This document shows, in pieces, positions 1 through 62,059 of a stretch of DNA of 64,000 bases (position 1 is the first letter of the stretch; each line of letters begins with the position of its first letter). Made by a program: the position numbers and the translations under genes. The notes under the pieces were generated by a model. The model searched no databases. It was not told where the DNA came from and was given only the letters and a program-made list of their open reading frames with translations. This DNA comes from Escherichia coli (GTDB taxonomy: Bacteria; Pseudomonadota; Gammaproteobacteria; Enterobacterales; Enterobacteriaceae), in the NCBI RefSeq assembly GCF_003018255.1, contig NZ_CP027440.1. One strand, 5' to 3'.

Positions 1-2317
<2,317 letters not shown>

Positions 2318-2414
2318 ACAACGCCGAAGATGTTTTGGCGGATGAGAGAAGATTTTCAGCCTGATACAGATTAAATCGACATGTCATAACGAGACGTGTT
2401 GATAAAACAGAATT

Positions 2415-2534
2415 TGCCTGGCGGCCTTAGCGCGGTGGTCCCACCTGACCCCATGCCGAACTCAGAAGTGAAACGCCGTAGCGCCGATGGTAGTGTGGGG
2501 TCTCCCCATGCGAGAGTAGGGAACTGCCAGGCAT
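2415..2534 (+). rRNA. rrfE: 5S ribosomal RNA
   Basis: 120-nt match to E. coli 5S rRNA, from tgcctggcggcc to gaactgccaggcat. Confidence 0.96.
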
Positions 2535-2545
2535 CAAATTAAGCG

Positions 2546-2573
2546 AAAGGCCATCCGAAAGGATGGCCTTTTT
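2546..2573 (+). terminator. rrn operon intrinsic terminator
   Basis: GC-rich hairpin aaaggccatcc-gaaa-ggatggccttt followed by a T tract, immediately after 5S. Confidence 0.85.
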
Positions 2574-2657
2574 GCATTGGCGCAGAAAAAATGCCGGATG
2601 CGACGCTGGCGCGTCTGCTCCAGCTTACGCAAGCACGATAGCACGATAGGGGGCAGC

Positions 2658-3101
2658 TTATTCCCCTACATATGCCAGATTCAGCAATGGATACGGTTTC
2701 CCCAAATCGTCCACCTCAGAGCGTCCCGTAACCTTAAAACCCATCTTCTTATAGAACCCAACAGCCTGCTTATTTTGCTCATTAACATTGGTTGTCAGTT
2801 CCGGTGCCATCGAGAGCGCATGTTCCACCAGCATCCGACCCACGCCGCAGCCGCGCACATCAGGATCGATAAACAGCGCATCCATATGCTGCCCACTTAA
2901 CAACATAAACCCAACCGGCCGATCCCGCTCATTAACCGCGACCCACAACGGCGCTTCCGGCAGGAAGGAACGAACTAGCTCCTCCAGCTCGGCCCGATAC
3001 GCTGCTGATAAAAAATCGTGAGTGGCATCGACAGAACGACACCAAATCGCAACGAGCTCCTCCCCTTCCTCATGCCGTGAGCGGCGAATACTAATAACCA
3101 T
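2658..3101 (-). CDS. yjaB: GNAT-family N-acetyltransferase YjaB
   Basis: 147-aa ORF with the acetyl-CoA binding motif region (RGCGVGRMLVEHAL); position between rrn and metA as in E. coli. Confidence 0.9.
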   Translation of the reverse strand: MVISIRRSRHEEGEELVAIWCRSVDATHDFLSAAYRAELEELVRSFLPEAPLWVAVNERDRPVGFMLLSGQHMDALFIDPDVRGCGVGRMLVEHALSMAPELTTNVNEQNKQAVGFYKKMGFKVTGRSEVDDLGKPYPLLNLAYVGE

Positions 3102-3214
3102 TTTCTCTCCTTTTCGTCATTCTTATATTCTAACGTAGCCTTTTCCTTGAAACTTTCTCACCTTCAATATGCAGGCTCGACATTGGCAAATTTTCTGGTT
3201 ATCTTCAGCTATCT

Positions 3215-3245
3215 GGATGTCTAAACGTATAAGCGTATGTAGTGA
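3215..3245 (+). promoter_or_regulatory. Tandem MetJ boxes in the metA promoter
   Basis: Consecutive 8-bp met-box-like repeats (gatgtcta aacgtata agcgtatg) just upstream of the metA start; MetJ consensus is AGACGTCT. Confidence 0.6.
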
Positions 3246-3257
3246 GGTAATCAGGTT

Positions 3258-4187
3258 ATGCCGATTCGTGTGCCGGACGAGCTACCCGCCGTCAATTTCT
3301 TGCGTGAAGAAAACGTCTTTGTGATGACAACTTCTCGTGCGTCTGGTCAGGAAATTCGTCCGCTAAAGGTGCTTATCCTTAACCTGATGCCGAAGAAGAT
3401 CGAAACTGAAAATCAGTTTCTGCGCCTGCTTTCAAACTCACCTTTGCAGGTCGATATTCAGCTGTTGCGCATCGATTCCCGTGAATCGCGCAACACGCCC
3501 GCAGAGCATCTGAATAACTTCTACTGTAACTTTGAAGATATTCAGGAACAAAACTTTGATGGTCTGATAGTTACCGGCGCGCCGCTGGGCCTGGTGGAGT
3601 TTAATGATGTTGCTTACTGGCCGCAGATCAAACAGGTGCTGGAGTGGTCGAAAGATCACGTCACCTCGACGCTGTTTGTCTGTTGGGCGGTCCAGGCCGC
3701 GCTCAATATCCTCTACGGCATTCCTAAGCAAACCCGCACCGACAAACTCTCTGGCGTTTACGAGCATCATATTCTCCATCCTCATGCGCTTCTGACGCGT
3801 GGCTTTGATGATTCATTCCTGGCACCACATTCGCGCTATGCTGACTTTCCGGCAGCGTTGATTCGTGATTATACCGATCTGGAAATTCTGGCGGAGACAG
3901 AAGAAGGGGATGCCTATCTGTTTGCCAGCAAAGATAAGCGAATTGCCTTTGTGACGGGCCATCCCGAATATGATGCGCAAACGCTGGCGCAGGAATTTTT
4001 CCGCGATGTGGAAGCCGGACTAGACCCGGATGTACCGTATAACTATTTCCCGCATAATGATCCGCAAAATACACCGCGAGCGAGCTGGCGTAGTCACGGT
4101 AATTTGCTGTTTACCAACTGGCTCAACTATTACGTCTACCAGATCACGCCATACGATCTACGGCACATGAACCCAACGCTGGATTAA
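3258..4187 (+). CDS. metA: Homoserine O-succinyltransferase
   Basis: 309-aa ORF starting [47 protein letters not shown], recognised as E. coli MetA. Confidence 0.96.
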
Positions 4188-4231
4188 TCTTCTGTGATAG
4201 TCGATCGTTAAGCGATTCAGCACCTTACCTC

Positions 4232-4255
4232 AGGCACCTTCGGGTGCCTTTTTTA
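4232..4255 (+). terminator. metA intrinsic terminator
   Basis: Hairpin aggcacc-ttcg-ggtgcct followed by tttttt. Confidence 0.8.
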
Positions 4256-4334
4256 TTTCCGAAACGCACCTCAGTAGGTGAATAAATTTTATTCATATTG
4301 TTATCAATAAGTTATCAAGTATTTTTAATTAAAA

Positions 4335-4357
4335 TGGAAATTGTTTTTGATTTTGCA
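4335..4357. promoter_or_regulatory. aceB promoter region with IclR operator
   Basis: tggaaattgtttttgattttgca about 100 bp upstream of aceB matches the known IclR box region of aceBAK; exact boundaries approximate. Confidence 0.55.
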
Positions 4358-4455
4358 TTTTAAATGAGTAGTCTTAGTTGTGCTGAACGAAAAGCGCACA
4401 ACGATCCTTCGTTCACAGTGGGGAAGTTTTCGGATCCATGACGAGGAGCTGCACG

Positions 4456-6057
4456 ATGACTGAACAGGCAACAACAACCGATGAATTGGCTTTCACAAGG
4501 CCGTATGGCGAGCAGGAGAAGCATATTCTTACTGCCGAAGCGGTAGAATTTCTGACTGAGCTGGTGACGCATTTTACGCCACAACGCAATAAACTTCTGG
4601 CAGCGCGCATTCAGCAGCAGCAGGATATCGATAACGGAACGTTGCCTGATTTTATTTCGGAAACAGCTTCCATTCGTGATGCTGACTGGAAAATTCGCGG
4701 GATTCCTGCGGACTTAGAAGATCGTCGGGTAGAGATTACCGGCCCGGTTGAGCGCAAGATGGTGATCAACGCGCTCAACGCCAATGTGAAAGTCTTTATG
4801 GCCGATTTCGAAGATTCACTGGCACCAGACTGGAACAAAGTGATCGATGGGCAAATTAACCTGCGCGATGCGGTTAACGGCACCATCAGCTATACCAATG
4901 AAGCAGGCAAAATTTATCAGCTCAAGCCCAATCCAGCGGTTTTGATTTGTCGGGTACGCGGTCTGCACTTGCCGGAAAAACATGTCACCTGGCGTGGTGA
5001 GGCAATCCCCGGTAGCCTGTTTGATTTTGCGCTCTATTTCTTCCACAACTATCAGGCACTGTTGGCAAAGGGCAGCGGTCCCTATTTCTATCTGCCGAAA
5101 ACCCAGTCCTGGCAGGAAGCGGCCTGGTGGAGCGAAGTCTTCAGCTATGCAGAAGATCGCTTTAATCTGCCGCGCGGCACCATCAAGGCGACGTTGCTGA
5201 TTGAAACGCTGCCCGCCGTGTTCCAGATGGATGAAATCCTTCACGCGCTGCGTGACCATATTGTTGGTCTGAACTGCGGTCGTTGGGATTACATCTTCAG
5301 TTATATCAAAACATTGAAAAACTATCCCGATCGCGTCCTGCCAGATAGACAGGCAGTGACGATGGATAAACCCTTCCTGAATGCTTACTCACGCCTGTTG
5401 ATTAAAACCTGCCATAAACGCGGTGCTTTTGCGATGGGCGGTATGGCGGCATTTATTCCGAGCAAAGATGAAGAGCGCAATAACCAGGTGCTCAACAAAG
5501 TAAAAGCGGATAAATCGCTGGAAGCTAATAACGGTCACGATGGCACATGGATTGCCCACCCAGGCCTTGCGGATACGGCAATGGCGGTATTCAACGACAT
5601 TCTCGGCTCCCGTAAAAATCAGCTTGAAGTGATGCGCGAACAAGACGCGCCGATTACTGCCGATCAGTTGCTGGCACCTTGTGATGGTGAACGCACCGAA
5701 GAAGGTATGCGCGCCAACATTCGCGTGGCTGTGCAGTACATCGAAGCGTGGATCTCTGGCAATGGCTGTGTGCCGATTTATGGCCTGATGGAAGATGCGG
5801 CGACGGCTGAAATTTCCCGTACCTCAATCTGGCAGTGGATCCATCATCAAAAAACGTTGAGCAATGGCAAACCGGTGACTAAAGCCTTGTTCCGCCAGAT
5901 GCTGGGCGAAGAGATGAAAGTCATTGCCAGCGAACTGGGCGAAGAACGTTTCTCCCAGGGGCGTTTTGACGATGCCGCACGCTTGATGGAACAGATCACC
6001 ACTTCCGATGAGTTAATTGATTTCCTGACCCTGCCAGGCTACCGCCTGTTAGCGTAA
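4456..6057 (+). CDS. aceB: Malate synthase A
   Basis: ORF-track 4438..6057; start moved to the internal ATG giving [20 protein letters not shown] (533 aa), the known AceB N-terminus. Confidence 0.95.
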
Positions 6058-7391: not shown

Positions 7392-7414
7392 GCAACCGAT
7401 AAACGTTGCTGACT

Positions 7415-9331
<1,917 letters not shown>

Positions 9332-42974: not shown

Positions 42975-45398
42975 TTACCCTTCGCCCTGCGTCGCACTCT
43001 CAATCGTCAAACGCACGTCTGATGTAATCAACTCCGCCAGCAACTGATACACCTTCATCGTTTCTGCCGGTTCGGCGTCGCCGCTATCGCTGATATACCC
43101 TTCATCACGCAGTGTCAGCACCAGAGAACTGAACACCGCCTTGTCGAAGAACTCCGGCGCGTTGATGCCGTGCAGCACGGAGAGACGTTGCGCGACGGTG
43201 CGGCTCTCTTTCTCCAGCGTACCGCGGTTGATCGACGGGTTGGCGCTCAACAGCCAGAAGGTGATGGCATAACGTTGCAGCGTTTCGCGCGCGCCTGCGG
43301 CCAGCAGCTGTAGCGTGCGAGAATGCGCCGGGTTGATATGCAACTCATCATCTTGCAGGGTAATCAGCCCCTGACGTTGCATCTCATTTGCCAGCGCATC
43401 AATAACGTCCGGCAACTCGTCGCGATCCCAGCGCAGGAACAGCTCCGCTTTCAGCATTGGGTAAAGCACATTGACGTGCTCCATCAATACGTCGCGGGAG
43501 ATGTGGCGATGCTGGGTGACAATTGCCGCCATCAGCGAAGGCAGCACCAACATATGCGCAATGTTGTTGCGATAGTAGGTCATCAGCACCGCTTGCTCGC
43601 GCGGCAGAATGATGATGTCGCCGATCGTGTCTTTCTCGACTTCAAACTTGTTCATTTGCAGCGCGTGATCGATAAGCTCGCTGGCGCTGGCTGAAGGAAC
43701 GGTAGAGTCCGTGGAGTAAGGCACGTTGCGCATCAGATCCAGGTAGCAGTTGAGTTGCTCGGTTAACTGCTCGCGGGTGAGTGAGCGCTGACGTGATGCC
43801 AGTAGCGCAGTACAGCACAGGTTCATGGCGTTTGCCGCGCCTGCGTTGTTAATGCGTACCATCAGATCGGCAGCAATATTATTGACCGTCGGCGTTAACC
43901 ATGCCGGACGCACCGCTTCGATGGGATCGATAGATTCACGCCAGTCTGGTACGTGCTGGTTAAGGTAGGTCATCAACGGCATTGGTTCACCGAAATTGAC
44001 GTAACCCTGGCCGAGATTACGCAGCTTGCTTAAACCGCGCAGCATCTGCGGCAGGCTCTCTTTCTCTTTCGTCGCGCCGCGCAGTTCTTTGGCGTAAGTA
44101 CCCACTTCCATGACGTGCTCATAACCGATATAGATCGGAATCAGCGTAATCGGACGCGTGCCGCCACGCAGCATCGCCTGAATGGTCATCGACAGCGTAC
44201 CGGTTTTCGGATCCAGCAAACGCCCCGTGCGGGAACGACCGCCTTCCACGAAGTACTCGACGGAATAACCACGGCTGAACAGTTCGCCGAGATACTCACG
44301 GAAAACGGTGGAATAAAGTTTATTGCCTTTAAAAGTACGGCGAATAAAGAACGCCCCCAGACGGCGGAAAATCGGCCCGGCCGGCCAGAAGTTTAGGTTG
44401 ATCCCGGCGGCGATATGCGGCGGCACCAGCCCCTGGTGATACAGCACGTAAGAAAGTAGCAGGTAGTCCATGTGACTGCGGTGGCAAGGCACATACACCA
44501 GCTCATGACCGTCGTGGGCCAGCTGGCGAACGCGCTCGGCGTTATGGACGTTGATGCCCTGATAAAGTCGGTTCCAGGTGAAGCCCAGAATGCGGTCAGT
44601 CAGGCGGATCATCTCGTAAGAGAAATTCGCCGCAATCTCTTCCATCAGCGCAATCGCGTTCTGCTGCGCTTTTTCATGGGAGATTTTTTTGCTGCGCGCT
44701 TCATCTTCTACCGCTTTGGCAATGGCGCGGGAGGCGAGCAGCTTATTAAACAGATCCTGACGAGCAGGCAGACGTGGTCCTACGGCAGCCAGACGTTGAC
44801 GGGCAAAGTGCATACGCGCCACGCGCGCCAGTTTCTGCGCGATAGTTTTATCCGTGCCGTGTTCATCCGCCATACGGCGCAGCGAAACTGACGGCGAGAA
44901 ACGCACAAAACTGTCGCGACCGAGCCACAGTACAGCGAAAAATTTCTGTACGCCGTTAAGCATACGCAGCGGCGGGTTCACTTCGCCTTTTTCACGCCCC
45001 GGCGCGCGACCAAACATCACCGACACTGGCACCATCTGCACATCCAGATTTGGGTTACTGCGGTGCAAATCGAGATAGTCGTGGAACAGCTTAATAGACT
45101 CTTCTTTCGGCGTGTAATAGGTGAATACACGCGGCCCGCCGTGAATGAACACATAGCGCGGCAGTAGCGTGCCGTCGATTTCCAGCGGCTCTAACGGGTC
45201 AGGCAGGTCATGTGCCAGACACTGGGCGCGCAACGTCAGCAAGTCTGCTTTCGAGTTGTACGGTAAAACGTACATAATTGGACGAGAGGTATCCAGCCCC
45301 AGTTCCGGGGCAGGATCTGCCGGAATAGACTTGCTTTTTACCAGGATGCTTAATGGTAAATTCAGTAATTTGTAGTAAATTCGTGGCCAGCCGGACAT
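42975..45398 (-). CDS. plsB: Glycerol-3-phosphate acyltransferase
   Basis: ORF-track 42975..45458; start moved to [29 protein letters not shown] (807 aa). Acyltransferase HXXXXD motif ([10 protein letters not shown]) present. Confidence 0.95.
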
Positions 45399-54297: not shown

Positions 54298-54492
54298 AAT
54301 AAAATCTTACCAATTCAATAAGTTGATATTCTTTCATGCTCTTATAAAGGTCGTGCATCTGGCGGATGTACGTTTGTCATGAGTCTCACTCTGTTGCTAA
54401 TTGCCATTCGCCCCTGAACATCCTCTCGATCTTCGCCTTCTTCCGGTTTATTGTGTTTTAACCACCTGCCCGTAAACCTGGAGAACCATCGC

Positions 54493-55686
54493 GTGTTTCA
54501 AAAAGTTGACGCCTACGCTGGCGACCCGATTCTTACGCTTATGGAGCGTTTTAAAGAAGACCCTCGCAGCGACAAAGTGAATTTAAGTATCGGTCTGTAC
54601 TACAACGAAGACGGAATTATTCCACAACTGAAAGCCGTAGCGGATGCGGAAGCGCGCCTGAATGCGCAGCCTCATGGTGCTTCGCTTTATTTACCGATGG
54701 AAGGGCTTAACAGCTATCGCCATGCCATTGCGCCGCTGCTGTTTGGTGCGGACCATCCGGTACTGCAACAACAGCGCGTAGCAACCATTCAAACCCTTGG
54801 CGGCTCAGGGGCATTGAAAGTGGGTGCAGATTTCCTGAAACGCTACTTCCCGGAATCAGGCGTCTGGGTCAGCGATCCTACCTGGGAAAACCACGTAGCA
54901 ATATTCGCCGGGGCTGGATTCGAAGTGAGCACTTACCCCTGGTATGACGAAGCGACTAACGGCGTGCGCTTTAATGACCTGTTGGCGACGCTGAAAACAT
55001 TACCTGCCCGCAGTATTGTGTTGCTGCATCCATGTTGCCACAACCCAACGGGTGCCGATCTCACTAATGACCAGTGGGATTCCGTGATTGAAATTCTCAA
55101 AGCCCGCGAGCTTATTCCATTCCTCGATATTGCCTATCAAGGATTTGGTGCCGGTATGGAAGAGGATGCCTACGCCATTCGCGCCATTGCCAGCGCTGGA
55201 TTACCCGCTCTGGTGAGCAATTCGTTCTCGAAAATTTTCTCCCTTTACGGCGAGCGCGTCGGCGGACTTTCTGTTCTGTGTGAAGATGCCGAAGCCGCAG
55301 GCCGCGTACTGGGGCAATTGAAAGCAACAGTTCGCCGCAACTACTCCAGCCCGCCGAATTTTGGTGCGCAGGTGGTGGCTGCGGTGCTGAATGACGAGGC
55401 ATTGAAAGCCAGCTGGCTGGCGGAAGTAGAAGAGATGCGTACTCGCATTCTGGCGATGCGTCAGGAACTGGTGAAGGTATTGAGCACAGAGATACCAGAA
55501 CGCAATTTCGATTATCTGCTTAATCAGCGCGGTATGTTCAGTTATACCGGTTTAAGTGCCGCTCAGGTTGACCGACTACGTGAAGAATTTGGTGTCTATC
55601 TCATCGCCAGCGGTCGCATGTGTGTCGCCGGGTTAAATACGGCAAATGTACAACGTGTGGCAAAGGCGTTTGCTGCGGTGATGTAA
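54493..55686 (+). CDS. tyrB: Aromatic-amino-acid aminotransferase
   Basis: ORF-track 54451..55686; start moved to the GTG giving (M)[27 protein letters not shown] (397 aa). Class-I aminotransferase PLP motif [16 protein letters not shown] present. Confidence 0.95.
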
Positions 55687-55907
55687 TGCAGGAAAGCAGG
55701 CTGGAGTTATCCAGCCTGCAGTGAAATTAAACTGTCGTCGCTTTCACTCTTGCTTTATAGATGATTTTTTTGATGCCATCGTTCTACGTGAGAGGTAATA
55801 AAACGTTGTTAGTTCTAACTTGTTAAGTTTATCCCAATGTTCTGGAGTACTTTTCCCTGTTTTACCGTGTGGAATAATAATTTTTGCACATCTAACCATT
55901 ATTAAAT

Positions 55908-56411
55908 TTAATAATAAGTATCGGGTTTGTTACGATAGAATTTTTCTATATCCTCAAGAATATGCTTTGCCTTATTGCCTGTGACTATCTGAGATTCAAT
56001 TATAGTATCGTTAAATTCTAAAGTTAAAGAGAACTCTTTTTTTCCGCTTTGTGTAAGTTTAACCTTATATTGATTACCAATATCAAATAAAAAGGTCCTG
56101 TAATGAGAATAATCACCTTTAACCTCCTCGGCAAAACAGCAAAGCGTGCAAATATACATACAATCTTTCTTACCCCTGATTTTGTTAACTAAATCAATAA
56201 ATGCGTGAAAAACTGTACTTGCAATAGAACTTGATACTTCTTCTCCAGGTCTACAAAAATCTTTTGCAATTTTTAACTGTGTTTCTATATATAAAAAGAG
56301 ATCTTTGGCATAAGAGAAATCTTTGGCATAAGAGATACCTTTGTTATTTAGTGTATCTAGCTCTACAGGTAAAGATGTCGTGTTGTTGCTATTCACATTT
56401 GATATATTCAT
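55908..56411 (-). CDS. Hypothetical protein, no assignable family (AT-rich orphan gene)
   Basis: Intact minus-strand ORF in the AT-rich tyrB-aphA spacer. Start preferred at ATG 56409-56411 (MNISNVNSNN...), preceded by AAGGAG with an 8-nt spacer; the longest ORF starts at 56450 (180 aa) but lacks a Shine-Dalgarno. Asn/Ser-rich N-terminus, Cys cluster DCMYICTLCC, Lys-rich C-terminus; no signal peptide or TM segment evident. Confidence 0.6.
   Translation of the reverse strand: MNISNVNSNNTTSLPVELDTLNNKGISYAKDFSYAKDLFLYIETQLKIAKDFCRPGEEVSSSIASTVFHAFIDLVNKIRGKKDCMYICTLCCFAEEVKGDYSHYRTFLFDIGNQYKVKLTQSGKKEFSLTLEFNDTIIESQIVTGNKAKHILEDIEKFYRNKPDTYY
56301..56336. repeat. Perfect-frame 18-bp tandem duplication inside the orphan ORF
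   Basis: atctttggcataagagaa / atctttggcataagagat, two adjacent 18-bp copies identical at 17 of 18 positions, giving the duplicated peptide SYAKDF-SYAKDL. Confidence 0.9.
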
Positions 56412-56532
56412 ATCATCATCTCCTTCGGGAGTAATAAAATTAGTCACCATTGTAGGGTAGGGGGCTGGTCAATCAGAAATCATCTTTATAAACTTCGATT
56501 GTTTTGTAATGCTGTATCATTAAGTTTATTAA

Positions 56533-57525
<993 letters not shown>

Positions 57526-61522: not shown

Positions 61523-62059
61523 ATGGCCAGCAGAGGCGTAAACAAGGTTATTCTCGTTGGTAATCTGGGTCAGGACCCGGAAGTACGCTACATGCCAAAT
61601 GGTGGCGCAGTTGCCAACATTACGCTGGCTACTTCCGAATCCTGGCGTGATAAAGCCACCGGCGAGATGAAAGAGCAGACTGAATGGCACCGCGTTGTGC
61701 TGTTCGGCAAACTGGCAGAAGTGGCCAGCGAATATCTGCGTAAAGGTTCTCAGGTTTATATCGAAGGTCAGCTGCGTACCCGCAAATGGACCGATCAATC
61801 CGGTCAGGATCGCTACACCACAGAAGTCGTGGTGAACGTTGGCGGCACCATGCAGATGCTGGGTGGTCGTCAGGGTGGTGGCGCTCCTGCAGGTGGCAAT
61901 ATCGGTGGTGGTCAGCCGCAGGGCGGTTGGGGTCAGCCTCAGCAGCCGCAGGGTGGCAATCAGTTCAGCGGCGGCGCGCAGTCTCGCCCGCAGCAGTCCG
62001 CTCCGGCAGCGCCGTCTAACGAGCCGCCGATGGACTTTGATGACGATATTCCGTTCTGA
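61523..62059 (+). CDS. ssb: Single-stranded DNA-binding protein
   Basis: ORF-track 61460..62059; start moved to [44 protein letters not shown] (178 aa). Gly/Gln-rich linker and acidic tail DFDDDIPF present. Confidence 0.97.

What the first reader, a model, noticed from the sequence alone, without database searches (positions are those of the whole stretch)
56301..56336. In-frame 18-bp tandem duplication inside the orphan ORF
Two adjacent 18-bp units, identical at 17 of 18 positions, duplicate six codons (SYAKDF then SYAKDL) without breaking the frame. Such short tandem repeats expand and contract by slipped-strand mispairing, so copy number here may vary between strains and could modulate the protein or, with other copy numbers, switch it off.
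Basis: seen in the sequence. Interest (0 to 1): 0.4.

Follow-up and report, generated by a model that had tools for sequence, protein, structure and literature searches.

The report
In-frame 18-bp repeat polymorphism in yjbS
A six-codon stretch is duplicated in tandem inside a small E. coli-only gene of unknown function (the full-length form of yjbS); strains carry one, two or three copies, but every copy number keeps the reading frame, so this is an ordinary length polymorphism and not an on/off switch.

Summary
Window 56301-56318 and 56319-56336 match at 17 of 18 bases. TRF extends the array to 56297-56343 (period 18, 2.6 copies). No composition-matched simulation reached 17/18.

The repeat lies on the minus strand in a 167-aa ORF (55908-56411). 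This ORF is the intact form of K-12 yjbS, whose 67-aa product is a frameshift remnant. It sits in a ~970-bp AT-rich islet between tyrB and aphA.

Among 5,426 complete E. coli genomes, about 4,350 carry the locus:
- about 2,075 have one unit;
- 2,224 have two units;
- 50 have three units;
- none with four was seen.

Three-unit alleles occur on at least four flanking haplotypes. Their internal unit orders differ, and two of them show 0 flanking SNPs against a two-unit allele. Expansion has therefore recurred, as slipped-strand mispairing predicts.

Copy number is uniform in the sampled K-12 derivatives and O157 strains. Because the unit is six codons, copy number cannot switch the gene off. Where the ORF is broken, the cause is a 1-bp, 2-bp or 10-bp deletion or a nonsense mutation; IS1 copies also sit in the spacer in some strains.

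The protein has no detectable relatives outside Escherichia and no known domain or fold. The repeat falls in a low-confidence N-terminal segment of the predicted structure.

Verdict: an ordinary coding minisatellite, with low interest. One useful by-product is that RefSeq labels intact alleles as "frameshifted".

The parts
56298..56342 (-). Tandem array in codon register. It has two full 18-nt units (coding strand AAAGGTATCTCTTATGCC and AAAGATTTCTCTTATGCC, encoding KGISYA and KDFSYA) plus a 9-nt partial third unit (AAAGATCTC, encoding KDL). This corresponds to residues 24-38 of the 167-aa protein.
   Evidence: Sequence read. TRF gives 56297-56343, period 18, 2.6 copies. Unit parsing across 17 alleles is.
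56301..56336 (-). They match at 17 of 18 positions and are a different phase of the same array.
   Evidence: and the simulation.
55908..56411 (-). 167-aa ORF plus stop codon, the full-length form of yjbS. The likely start is the ATG at 56411, preceded by GGAG 8 nt upstream. This is the same start that RefSeq uses for K-12 YjbS.
   Evidence: ORF list, allele translations, K-12 annotation. dN/dS among intact alleles is 0.13-0.64.
56412..56450 (-). Possible 13-codon N-terminal extension (MVTNFITPEGDDD) if the upstream in-frame ATG were used. No Shine-Dalgarno sequence precedes it, so it is probably not translated.
   Evidence: Some database gene calls start here (P0005, P0007-P0009).
56253..56268 (-). 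A third, degenerate copy of the repeat core (coding GCAAAAGATTT, encoding AKDF) lying 60 nt downstream of the array. It is the substrate of a 60-nt in-frame deletion seen in one database allele (P0008). Position 56254 is the base deleted in K-12, which creates the 67-aa YjbS.
   Evidence: the repeat finder family D3, the P0008 sequence, the alignment.
56037..56043 (-). A7 homopolymer on the coding strand (GGAAAAAAAGAG). K-12 and L010 (both already broken upstream) have one A fewer here. L009, L012 and L016 lose one A plus a neighbouring T (2 bp); this breaks the frame in L009 and L016, while L012 already has an upstream stop.
   Evidence: Alignment, translations.
55701..56672 (.). AT-rich islet (about 30-34% GC, against about 50-57% in the flanking genes) occupying the tyrB-aphA spacer. 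About 80% of E. coli genomes have it. B2-type strains carry the kguSR island in its place.
   Evidence: Composition profile. Homology with strain NU14 stops at query 314 and resumes at 1287. PMC3694859 and PMC3661553.
55744..55899 (-). 51-aa ORF immediately downstream of the 167-aa ORF. It is open in the window-type haplotype and interrupted in the K-12-type haplotype. It has no family hits and is probably not a gene.

Best explanation
The feature is an in-frame coding minisatellite: an 18-bp, six-codon unit (consensus AAAGATnTCTCTTATGCC, encoding K-D-[I/F]-S-Y-A) present in one to three tandem copies. It lies near the 5' end of the full-length yjbS gene. That gene is restricted to Escherichia, has no known function, and sits in an AT-rich islet between tyrB and aphA; a published study lists the K-12 locus as H-NS-bound.

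Copy number changes occasionally. The inferred mechanism is replication slippage or another RecA-independent misalignment between the direct repeats. Each change adds or removes one hexapeptide at the junction between a predicted disordered N-terminal tail and the first predicted helix.

Every copy number keeps the reading frame, so the repeat is a length polymorphism of the protein and not an expression switch. Its effect is most likely neutral or nearly so, in a gene that is dispensable and already inactivated by unrelated mutations in a large share of lineages.

What is shown: the repeat, its frame, the copy-number spectrum, recurrent independent expansions, and ORF decay through other lesions. 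What is inferred: slippage as the mechanism, near-neutrality, and H-NS silencing in this particular strain.
For: Repeat and frame.

Copy-number spectrum in 5,426 complete genomes:
- A two-unit query gave 2,224 records at 90% identity or more; every listed row in that band spans 128 nt.
- It gave 2,125 records at 80-90% identity; every listed row in that band spans 109-110 nt, meaning one unit.
- A three-unit query gave exactly 50 single-piece hits of span 146.
- A four-unit query gave no single-piece span-164 hit among the best rows.

Recurrence:
- Three-unit alleles have different unit orders: L001 is I,I,F; L013 and L016 are I,F,F; L014 duplicates the haplotype-specific GCT marker; L015 is a duplication in a different register.
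- They sit on different flanking haplotypes. L014 and L015 differ from the two-unit L011 by 0 SNPs in about 1.2 kb. L013 differs from one-unit K-12 by 5 SNPs. L001 differs from the window by 6.
- One-unit alleles are of two kinds: K-12 retains the I unit and O157 retains the F unit.

Frame is kept in all cases, with intact ORFs of 161, 167 and 173 aa.

Inactivating lesions lie elsewhere: a 1-bp deletion at 56254 in K-12, a 10-bp deletion in O157, a 2-bp deletion at the A7 run (L009, L016), GAG to TAG in L012, an early 1-bp deletion in L010, and truncation at 115 aa in L013 (lesion not pinpointed). IS1 copies lie in the spacer in H10, H35 and H240, and H40 has an IS1-associated deletion of the islet.

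Stability within clones: every sampled K-12 derivative and every sampled O157/O55:H7 strain has span 110.

The ORF looks like a real gene. dN/dS is 0.13-0.64, for example 10 synonymous against 8 nonsynonymous differences over 90 against 375 sites. GGAG lies 8 nt before the ATG. The AlphaFold model gives pTM 0.61, with the C-terminal beta-meander and helix at pLDDT 80-90.

The repeat region (residues 24-38) lies in the low-confidence segment: 1-36 is below 50 and residues 31-40 average 46.

Islet context: with the H-NS and promoter-island listing in PMC3661553.
Against: No direct measurement of the mutation rate or of within-population heterogeneity was possible. Slippage is inferred from the pattern alone.

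Recombination between alleles could account for some haplotype and copy-number combinations. It cannot explain the haplotype-specific marker duplicated in L014.

Purifying selection on the ORF (dN/dS below 1) means the protein matters, or once mattered, in some lineages, so hexapeptide number might not be neutral.

Copy-number counts rest on BLAST identity bands checked against sampled rows, not on per-genome parsing. A four-unit allele on a divergent haplotype could be hidden among joined two-piece hits.

The structural model is only moderately confident (mean pLDDT 61, built from 12 near-identical sequences).
Confidence: 0.8

Rival explanations
1. The repeat is functional tuning of the protein. 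Under this view the number of KD[I/F]SYA hexapeptides adjusts the length of an N-terminal linker or helix and so alters an interaction or activity of a working Escherichia-specific protein. The roughly even split between one and two units would then be maintained by selection.
For: The ORF shows purifying selection (dN/dS 0.13-0.64) and a partly confident predicted fold. One-unit and two-unit alleles are both common, about 48% and 51%. The hexapeptide itself is conserved, with S-Y-A and K-D nearly invariant.
Against: In the spread sample, 26 of 60 rows (about 43% of locus-bearing genomes) show a broken ORF: the K-12 type, labelled yjbS, in 21 rows and the O157 type in 5. The gene is therefore dispensable. 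The repeat lies in the least confident, probably disordered part of the model. No function, domain or partner is known. The one-unit versus two-unit split largely follows lineage.
Confidence: 0.12
2. The repeat is a phase-variation (contingency) switch, in which changes in copy number turn the gene on and off, as the first reader proposed as a possibility.
For: The array is a tandem repeat inside a coding region, and copy number does vary between strains.
Against: The unit is 18 bp, a multiple of three, so no copy number shifts the frame. Intact ORFs exist with one, two and three units. There are only one to three copies. Copy number is uniform in the sampled K-12 laboratory derivatives and O157 strains. 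All ORF disruptions map outside the array.
Confidence: 0.02
3. The repeat acts at the DNA level rather than in the protein. It would be a reiterated binding site, for example for H-NS or another nucleoid protein, or an element of the 'promoter island' in the AT-rich islet, with the ORF being incidental.
For: PMC3661553 lists a tyrB/yjbS site in K-12 as a promoter island that binds H-NS. TraDIS found few insertions in yjbS (PMC5821084). I attribute that to protein occlusion of the DNA; this is my inference, not a statement in the paper.
Against: The published promoter island (318 bp, starting at K-12 coordinate 4266514) is annotated between tyrB and yjbS. Whether it overlaps the repeat was not checked. 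The promoter-like site count in the islet equals the shuffled expectation (5 against 5.0). Variation within units follows codon logic, being synonymous or conservative I/F changes. No Rfam family matched. dN/dS below 1 supports coding constraint.
Confidence: 0.04
4. The duplication is an assembly or sequencing artefact in this one sequence.
For: None was found.
Against: The same two-unit arrangement occurs in 2,224 complete genomes from many laboratories and sequencing platforms. One genome matches the window 100% over 1,725 bp.
Confidence: 0

Closest known systems
In-frame coding minisatellites (VNTRs) in bacterial genes, as used in MLVA typing (for example the generic E. coli loci CVN001-CVN017)
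   Same: It is a head-to-tail direct repeat with a unit that is a multiple of three. Copy number differs between strains and changes recurrently, in the way attributed to slipped-strand mispairing.
   Different: The copy range is very small (1-3), whereas CVN002 alleles reach 18 (PMC3407997). It is not one of the two MLVA loci given an 18-bp unit length in PMC8143711: the CVN002 primers and the CVN007 forward primer are absent from the window even with 3 mismatches allowed. Copy number is stable within clones, so it would have little typing resolution.
K-12 yjbS (b4621; 'protein YjbS', WP_001321562.1, 67 aa)
   Same: It occupies the same locus between tyrB and aphA, on the same strand and with the same start codon. 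K-12 residues 1-46 are collinear with the window ORF apart from one hexapeptide.
   Different: The K-12 product is a truncated frameshift remnant. It has a 1-bp deletion at the position matching window 56254, one repeat unit instead of two, and a further 1-bp loss in the A7 run. The window ORF is intact at 167 aa. RefSeq/PGAP uses the truncated K-12 protein as its model and so labels intact alleles 'frameshifted'.
Simple-sequence contingency loci (phase-variable genes of Neisseria, Haemophilus and Campylobacter)
   Same: It is a tandem repeat inside a coding region that is prone to slippage.
   Different: Contingency loci use units of 1-7 bp that are not multiples of three, or promoter spacers, in long tracts that switch at high frequency. 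Here the unit is 18 bp, there are at most three copies, the frame is always kept, and copy number is uniform in the sampled clone members.
The kguS/kguR alpha-ketoglutarate utilisation island of uropathogenic E. coli (c5032-c5041 in CFT073)
   Same: It occupies the same chromosomal slot between tyrB and aphA (PMC3694859; NU14 locus).
   Different: It is an unrelated, much larger island with different gene content. It is the alternative occupant of the site in about 20% of genomes. The yjbS islet is about 970 bp and holds one orphan gene.

Membership tests
In-frame coding VNTR / minisatellite | Adjacent head-to-tail copies of one unit, more similar than chance allows | tested here: met
   The two units match at 17/18. 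TRF score is 73 with 2.6 copies. None of 300 window simulations and none of 5,000 islet simulations reached this.
In-frame coding VNTR / minisatellite | Unit length is a multiple of three and lies inside an ORF, so copy changes keep the frame | tested here: met
   The unit is 18 bp. Intact ORFs of 161, 167 and 173 aa carry one, two and three units.
In-frame coding VNTR / minisatellite | Copy number is polymorphic among strains | tested here: met
   About 2,075 records have one unit, 2,224 have two and 50 have three. Units were parsed directly in 17 alleles.
In-frame coding VNTR / minisatellite | Changes are recurrent and independent, not a single historical event | tested here: met
   The five sequenced three-unit alleles differ in unit order (three orders, plus marker differences), and the two that share one order lie on flanks 30 SNPs apart. 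Two-unit and three-unit alleles can have identical flanks, with 0 SNPs in about 1.2 kb.
In-frame coding VNTR / minisatellite | The mechanism is replication slippage | not testable with these tools
   This is inferred from the pattern. It needs a mutation-accumulation or reporter assay.
Phase-variable contingency locus | A copy-number change shifts the frame or alters a promoter, toggling expression | tested here: not met
   The 18-bp unit lies inside the ORF and all copy numbers are in frame.
Phase-variable contingency locus | High-frequency switching visible among members of one clone | tested here: not met
   All sampled K-12 laboratory derivatives and all sampled O157/O55:H7 strains share one allele of span 110. 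Heterogeneity within a single culture was not testable.
YjbS (NCBI 'protein YjbS') | Same locus, strand and start, and collinear sequence with K-12 YjbS | tested here: met
   K-12 annotation and alignment. The two are identical in frame up to the K-12 1-bp deletion.
Generic E. coli MLVA loci given an 18-bp unit length in PMC8143711 (CVN002, CVN007) | Published primers flank the repeat | tested here: not met
   CVN002 F and R and CVN007 F gave 0 matches in the window with up to 3 mismatches. Primer sequences are from PMC8143711.
H-NS-silenced, horizontally acquired AT-rich islet | Marked AT-richness relative to the flanks, and presence/absence polymorphism | tested here: met
   GC is 0.30-0.35 against 0.50-0.57 in the flanks. 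The locus is present in 4,378 of 5,426 genomes and is replaced by another island in NU14.
H-NS-silenced, horizontally acquired AT-rich islet | H-NS binding and transcriptional silencing | not testable with these tools
   This is reported for K-12 in the literature only (PMC3661553 Table 1).

The most novel reading that the evidence does not exclude
The intact 161-173-aa YjbS is a working gene born in the Escherichia lineage, with a fold not represented in the PDB. Its N-terminal KD[I/F]SYA hexapeptide number (1-3) is a selected tuning device, for example setting the length of a helix or linker that controls self-association or partner binding. On this reading, K-12 research has missed the gene because the reference strain carries only a frameshifted stump.
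Probability: 0.08. Interest if true: 0.45.

Novelty: new member of a known kind. Interest (0 to 1): 0.2.

Why it matters
The finding matters little on its own. It is a textbook in-frame length polymorphism in a dispensable orphan gene, and it cannot act as a switch.

Three modest points are worth keeping:
- It corrects the reference picture of yjbS. The 67-aa K-12 protein is a truncated remnant of a 161-173-aa ORF that is intact in many strains. Automated annotation calls the intact alleles "frameshifted" because it uses the broken K-12 protein as its template.
- The locus is a clean natural example of recurrent 18-bp duplication and deletion. Internal SNP markers show which unit was copied, and in which register.
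- The tyrB-aphA slot holds two alternative occupants, the yjbS islet or the kguSR island, and the orphan gene shows purifying selection. It is therefore a candidate for study as a taxonomically restricted gene.

Tried and rejected
- Domain and family searches on the 167-aa and 51-aa ORFs found nothing useful. Pfam, NCBIfam and PADLOC gave no hits, and PHROGs gave only E = 0.007 noise.
- The word-indexed search of 5.8 billion proteins gave 62 hits. Every source name shown is E. coli or Escherichia sp., and most are fragments or frameshift products.
- An exhaustive HMM profile search of 1.84 billion representatives gave 27 hits, all 26-142 aa and shorter than the 167-position profile; those examined in the word-indexed search are fragments of the same Escherichia ORF. 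No remote relatives appeared.
- A mobile-element origin was not supported. There was no match in 50,697 phage records. Of the eight 'plasmid' hits, seven are E. coli records of 0.37-4.9 Mb, which I read as chromosomes or chromosomal fragments filed as plasmids, and one is a 17-kb Klebsiella record carrying K-12-type sequence.
- A scan of GTDB species representatives for a conserved 20-mer returned only three matches, in Mesoplasma, Christensenellaceae and Flavobacterium, consistent with chance. No outgroup was obtained, so the ancestral copy number remains open.
- Identity with the known 18-bp MLVA loci was rejected, because the CVN002 primers and the CVN007 forward primer are absent from the window.
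- A four-unit allele was not seen among the best-ranked hits. This check was not exhaustive for divergent haplotypes.
- No Rfam family matched the islet. No repeats bound the islet. Promoter-like sites are no more frequent than in shuffles.
- The short megablast query matched only 443 records, because of the word size, and joined pieces confusingly. It was replaced by blastn queries whose identity bands separate the copy-number classes cleanly.

Full report
**1. The observation**

Reading the window directly, + strand 56301-56318 is atctttggcataagagaa and 56319-56336 is atctttggcataagagat. The two units match at 17 of 18 positions. Tandem Repeats Finder extends the array to 56297-56343 (period 18, 2.6 copies, 89% matches, score 73). 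It is one of only four arrays scoring at least 50 in the whole 64-kb window.

The coding strand is the minus strand. In codon register the array is 56298-56342 and consists of:
- AAAGGTATCTCTTATGCC (K-G-I-S-Y-A);
- AAAGATTTCTCTTATGCC (K-D-F-S-Y-A);
- a 9-nt partial unit AAAGATCTC (K-D-L).

The repeat is not a chance match. None of 300 composition-matched simulated windows contained an adjacent 18+18 pair with at most one mismatch. None of 5,000 simulations of the AT-rich islet alone exceeded 16/18.

**2. What the repeat sits in**

The neighbouring genes place the locus in the alr-tyrB-aphA-yjbQ-yjbR-uvrA region of E. coli. tyrB occupies 54451-55686 and aphA begins at 56812. Between them lies a stretch of 30-35% GC, against 50-57% in the flanking genes.

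On the minus strand this stretch carries an ORF at 55908-56450, which is 180 aa counted from the first ATG. The ATG at 56411 is preceded by GGAG 8 nt upstream and is the start RefSeq uses for K-12 yjbS. The product is therefore most likely 167 aa.

An alignment of 17 alleles shows that K-12's 67-aa "protein YjbS" is a remnant of this ORF. K-12 has lost one base at the position matching window 56254, which shifts the frame after residue 46. It has also lost one A from the A7 run at 56037-43.

The window allele is intact. A genome 100% identical to the window is nevertheless annotated by PGAP as "hypothetical protein, frameshifted". The cause is that PGAP's template is the truncated K-12 protein. 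The extra 18-bp unit plus the extra base then look like a 19-bp frameshift.

**3. Copy number across E. coli**

A 1,125-bp query of the spacer matched 4,378 of 5,426 complete genomes. Spans in the evenly spaced sample already suggested length classes differing by about 18 bp.

blastn queries built from flanks plus a defined number of units gave clean identity bands, which I checked against the spans of the sampled rows.

| Query | Result | Interpretation |
|---|---|---|
| Two units | 2,224 records at ≥90% identity (listed rows span 128) | two units |
| Two units | 2,125 records at 80-90% identity (listed rows span 109-110) | a different copy number, almost all one unit |
| Three units | exactly 50 single-piece hits of span 146 | three units |
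| Four units | no single-piece span-164 hit among the best rows | four units not seen |

The resulting estimate is about 2,075 records with one unit (48%), 2,224 with two (51%) and 50 with three (1.1%). The four-unit check is not exhaustive for divergent haplotypes.

**4. Are the changes recurrent?**

I parsed the units directly in 17 alleles and counted flanking SNPs over about 1.2 kb with the repeat masked. "I" and "F" denote units encoding isoleucine or phenylalanine at the variable position.

| Allele | Unit order | Flanking relationship |
|---|---|---|
| L001 | I, I, F(TTC) | 6 SNPs from the two-unit window |
| L013 | I, F(TTC), F(TTC) | 5 SNPs from one-unit K-12 |
| L016 | I, F(TTC), F(TTC) | 24-30 SNPs from the K-12-like alleles |
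| L014 | I, F(TTT..GCT), F(TTT..GCT) | 0 SNPs from the two-unit L011; it duplicates that haplotype's private GCT marker |
| L015 | I, F(..GCC), F(..GCT) | same flank as L011; a duplication of L011 in a register offset by two bases |

These five alleles therefore record five separate expansions.

One-unit alleles are also of two kinds. K-12 retains the I unit and O157 retains a TTT-type F unit. The one-unit K-12 allele differs from a two-unit allele (L008) by only 2 flanking SNPs.

A database allele (P0008) has a 60-nt in-frame deletion between the array and a third, degenerate copy of its core at 56257-56268 (repeat finder family D3). All of this is the signature of misalignment between short direct repeats.

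The site is not hypermutable on clonal time scales. Every sampled K-12 laboratory derivative and every sampled O157/O55:H7 strain carries the same allele.

**5. Can it switch the gene off?**

It cannot. The unit is six codons, and intact ORFs exist with one unit (161 aa), two units (167 aa) and three units (173 aa).

The ORF is broken in many lineages, but always by lesions elsewhere:
- the 1-bp deletion in K-12;
- a 10-bp deletion in O157;
- a 2-bp deletion at the A7 run in L009 and L016;
- a GAG to TAG change in L012;
- an early 1-bp deletion in L010;
- a truncation at 115 aa in L013, whose lesion I did not pinpoint.

IS1 copies also lie in the spacer in H10, H35 and H240, and in H40 an IS1 has replaced the islet and the start of aphA. 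IS1 insertions inside yjbS have been reported in evolved K-12 (PMC4999529).

In the evenly spaced sample, 21 of 60 rows carry the K-12-type truncated allele and 5 carry the O157 type. At least about 40% of locus-bearing genomes therefore have a dead gene.

**6. Is the ORF a real gene, and what is it?**

Evidence that it is, or was, a real gene:
- Nei-Gojobori dN/dS among intact alleles is 0.13-0.64. One example is 10 synonymous against 8 nonsynonymous differences over about 90 against about 375 sites.
- It has a good Shine-Dalgarno sequence.
- AlphaFold gives pTM 0.61, with three helices, a five-strand meander and a C-terminal helix. The C-terminal half reaches pLDDT 80-90, despite an alignment of only 12 close sequences.

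What the protein does is unknown:
- Pfam, NCBIfam and PADLOC give nothing, and PHROGs gives only noise.
- 62 word-index hits are, wherever a source names them, E. coli or Escherichia sp..
- An exhaustive profile search of 1.84 billion representatives returns 27 hits, all shorter than the profile and, where examined, fragments of the same ORF.
- Phage records hold no match, and I read the "plasmid" matches as misfiled chromosomal DNA.

It is a true taxonomically restricted gene. The repeat encodes residues 24-38, at the boundary between the low-confidence N-terminal tail (1-36, pLDDT below 50) and the first predicted helix (30-51). That location makes tolerance of hexapeptide gain or loss plausible.

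**7. Context of the islet**

About 20% of genomes lack the islet. In NU14, a B2-type uropathogenic strain, homology with the window stops 14 nt after tyrB and resumes 139 nt before aphA. This bounds the islet at about 55701-56672.

In its place NU14 has a sensor kinase, a sigma-54 regulator, an Ldh-family oxidoreductase and a DASS symporter. This is the kguS/kguR island, described as inserted between tyrB and aphA (PMC3694859).

For K-12, the tyrB/yjbS region is listed among "promoter islands" associated with foreign genes and H-NS binding (PMC3661553 Table 1). yjbS is also among genes with few transposon insertions in TraDIS (PMC5821084). These points come from the literature and were not tested here.

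**8. Comparison with known things**

The closest known kind is the ordinary in-frame coding VNTR used in MLVA typing. I checked whether this array is one of the generic E. coli MLVA loci for which PMC8143711 gives an 18-bp unit length. The CVN002 primers and the CVN007 forward primer have no match in the window with up to three mismatches. CVN002 alleles also run up to 18 copies (PMC3407997). It is a different locus.

It fails both defining features of a contingency (phase-variation) locus. No Rfam family and no excess of promoter-like sites point to a role at the DNA or RNA level.

**9. Verdict**

The best explanation is a slippage-generated, near-neutral hexapeptide length polymorphism in the full-length yjbS orphan gene (confidence about 0.8). 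Its novelty is that of a new member of a known kind, and interest is low (0.2).

The most useful by-products are two. The first is the correction that K-12 yjbS is a truncated remnant whose intact alleles are mislabelled as frameshifted. The second is a tidy natural record of register-specific 18-bp duplications.

Noticed in passing
window 56189-56411 (PGAP pseudogene in the identical genome, L005 803-1025); also L001, L007, L008, L011: RefSeq/PGAP annotates the intact 167-aa and 173-aa ORFs as a 'frameshifted' hypothetical-protein pseudogene. Its template is the 67-aa K-12 YjbS, which is itself the frameshifted form. In some genomes the C-terminal 83 aa is called as a separate protein (WP_000275035.1).
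   Followed up: yes
L021 (E. coli NU14) 1-5862; window islet bounds ~55701 and ~56672: About 20% of E. coli genomes, including the B2 strain NU14, lack the yjbS islet. Between tyrB and aphA they carry a much larger island with a sensor kinase, a sigma-54 regulator, an Ldh-family oxidoreductase and a DASS symporter. This is the published kguS/kguR island (PMC3694859).
   Followed up: partly
hits H10, H35, H240 (IS1 inside the spacer) and L020 1630-2327 (strain SL124): IS1 copies have inserted repeatedly in this AT-rich spacer. In SL124 an IS1 has replaced the whole islet and the 5' end of aphA. IS1 insertions in yjbS were also reported in macrophage-evolved K-12 (PMC4999529).
   Followed up: partly
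window 55744-55905: The roughly 150 bp between the ORF stop and tyrB exists as two sharply different haplotypes. The window, L001, L005, L006 and L007 share one, and the K-12-like alleles share the other, with a switch point just after the ORF stop. This suggests a recombination mosaic. A 51-aa ORF is open only in the window-type haplotype.
   Followed up: no
window 56037-56043: The A7 run on the coding strand (GGAAAAAAAGAG) is shortened in five sampled alleles: K-12 and L010 have one A fewer, and L009, L012 and L016 lose one A plus a neighbouring T. Unlike the 18-bp repeat, this site can shift the reading frame, and it is the frame-breaking lesion in L009 and L016.
   Followed up: partly
protein P0008; window 56257-56268 vs 56317-56328: One metagenome-derived allele has a 60-nt in-frame deletion that removes 20 residues (SYAKDFFLYIETQLKIAKDF). 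The deletion lies between the array and a third degenerate copy of the repeat core 60 nt downstream.
   Followed up: partly
window 7404-7574; 44755-44796; 61903-61942: TRF found three other tandem arrays in the window: a 91-bp unit in 1.9 copies at 7404-7574, and two 21-bp units in 1.9 copies each at 44755 and 61903. The 91-bp unit looks like REP/BIME-type intergenic repeats, and I guess the last array lies in the ssb region. Neither impression was checked.
   Followed up: no
plasmid-collection hit H290 (NZ_CP069917.1, Klebsiella oxytoca, 17,275 bp): A 17-kb 'Klebsiella oxytoca plasmid' record carries a K-12-type yjbS allele. This looks like contamination with, or misassembly of, E. coli K-12 DNA. 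Several multi-megabase E. coli 'plasmids' in PLSDB appear to be chromosomes.
   Followed up: no
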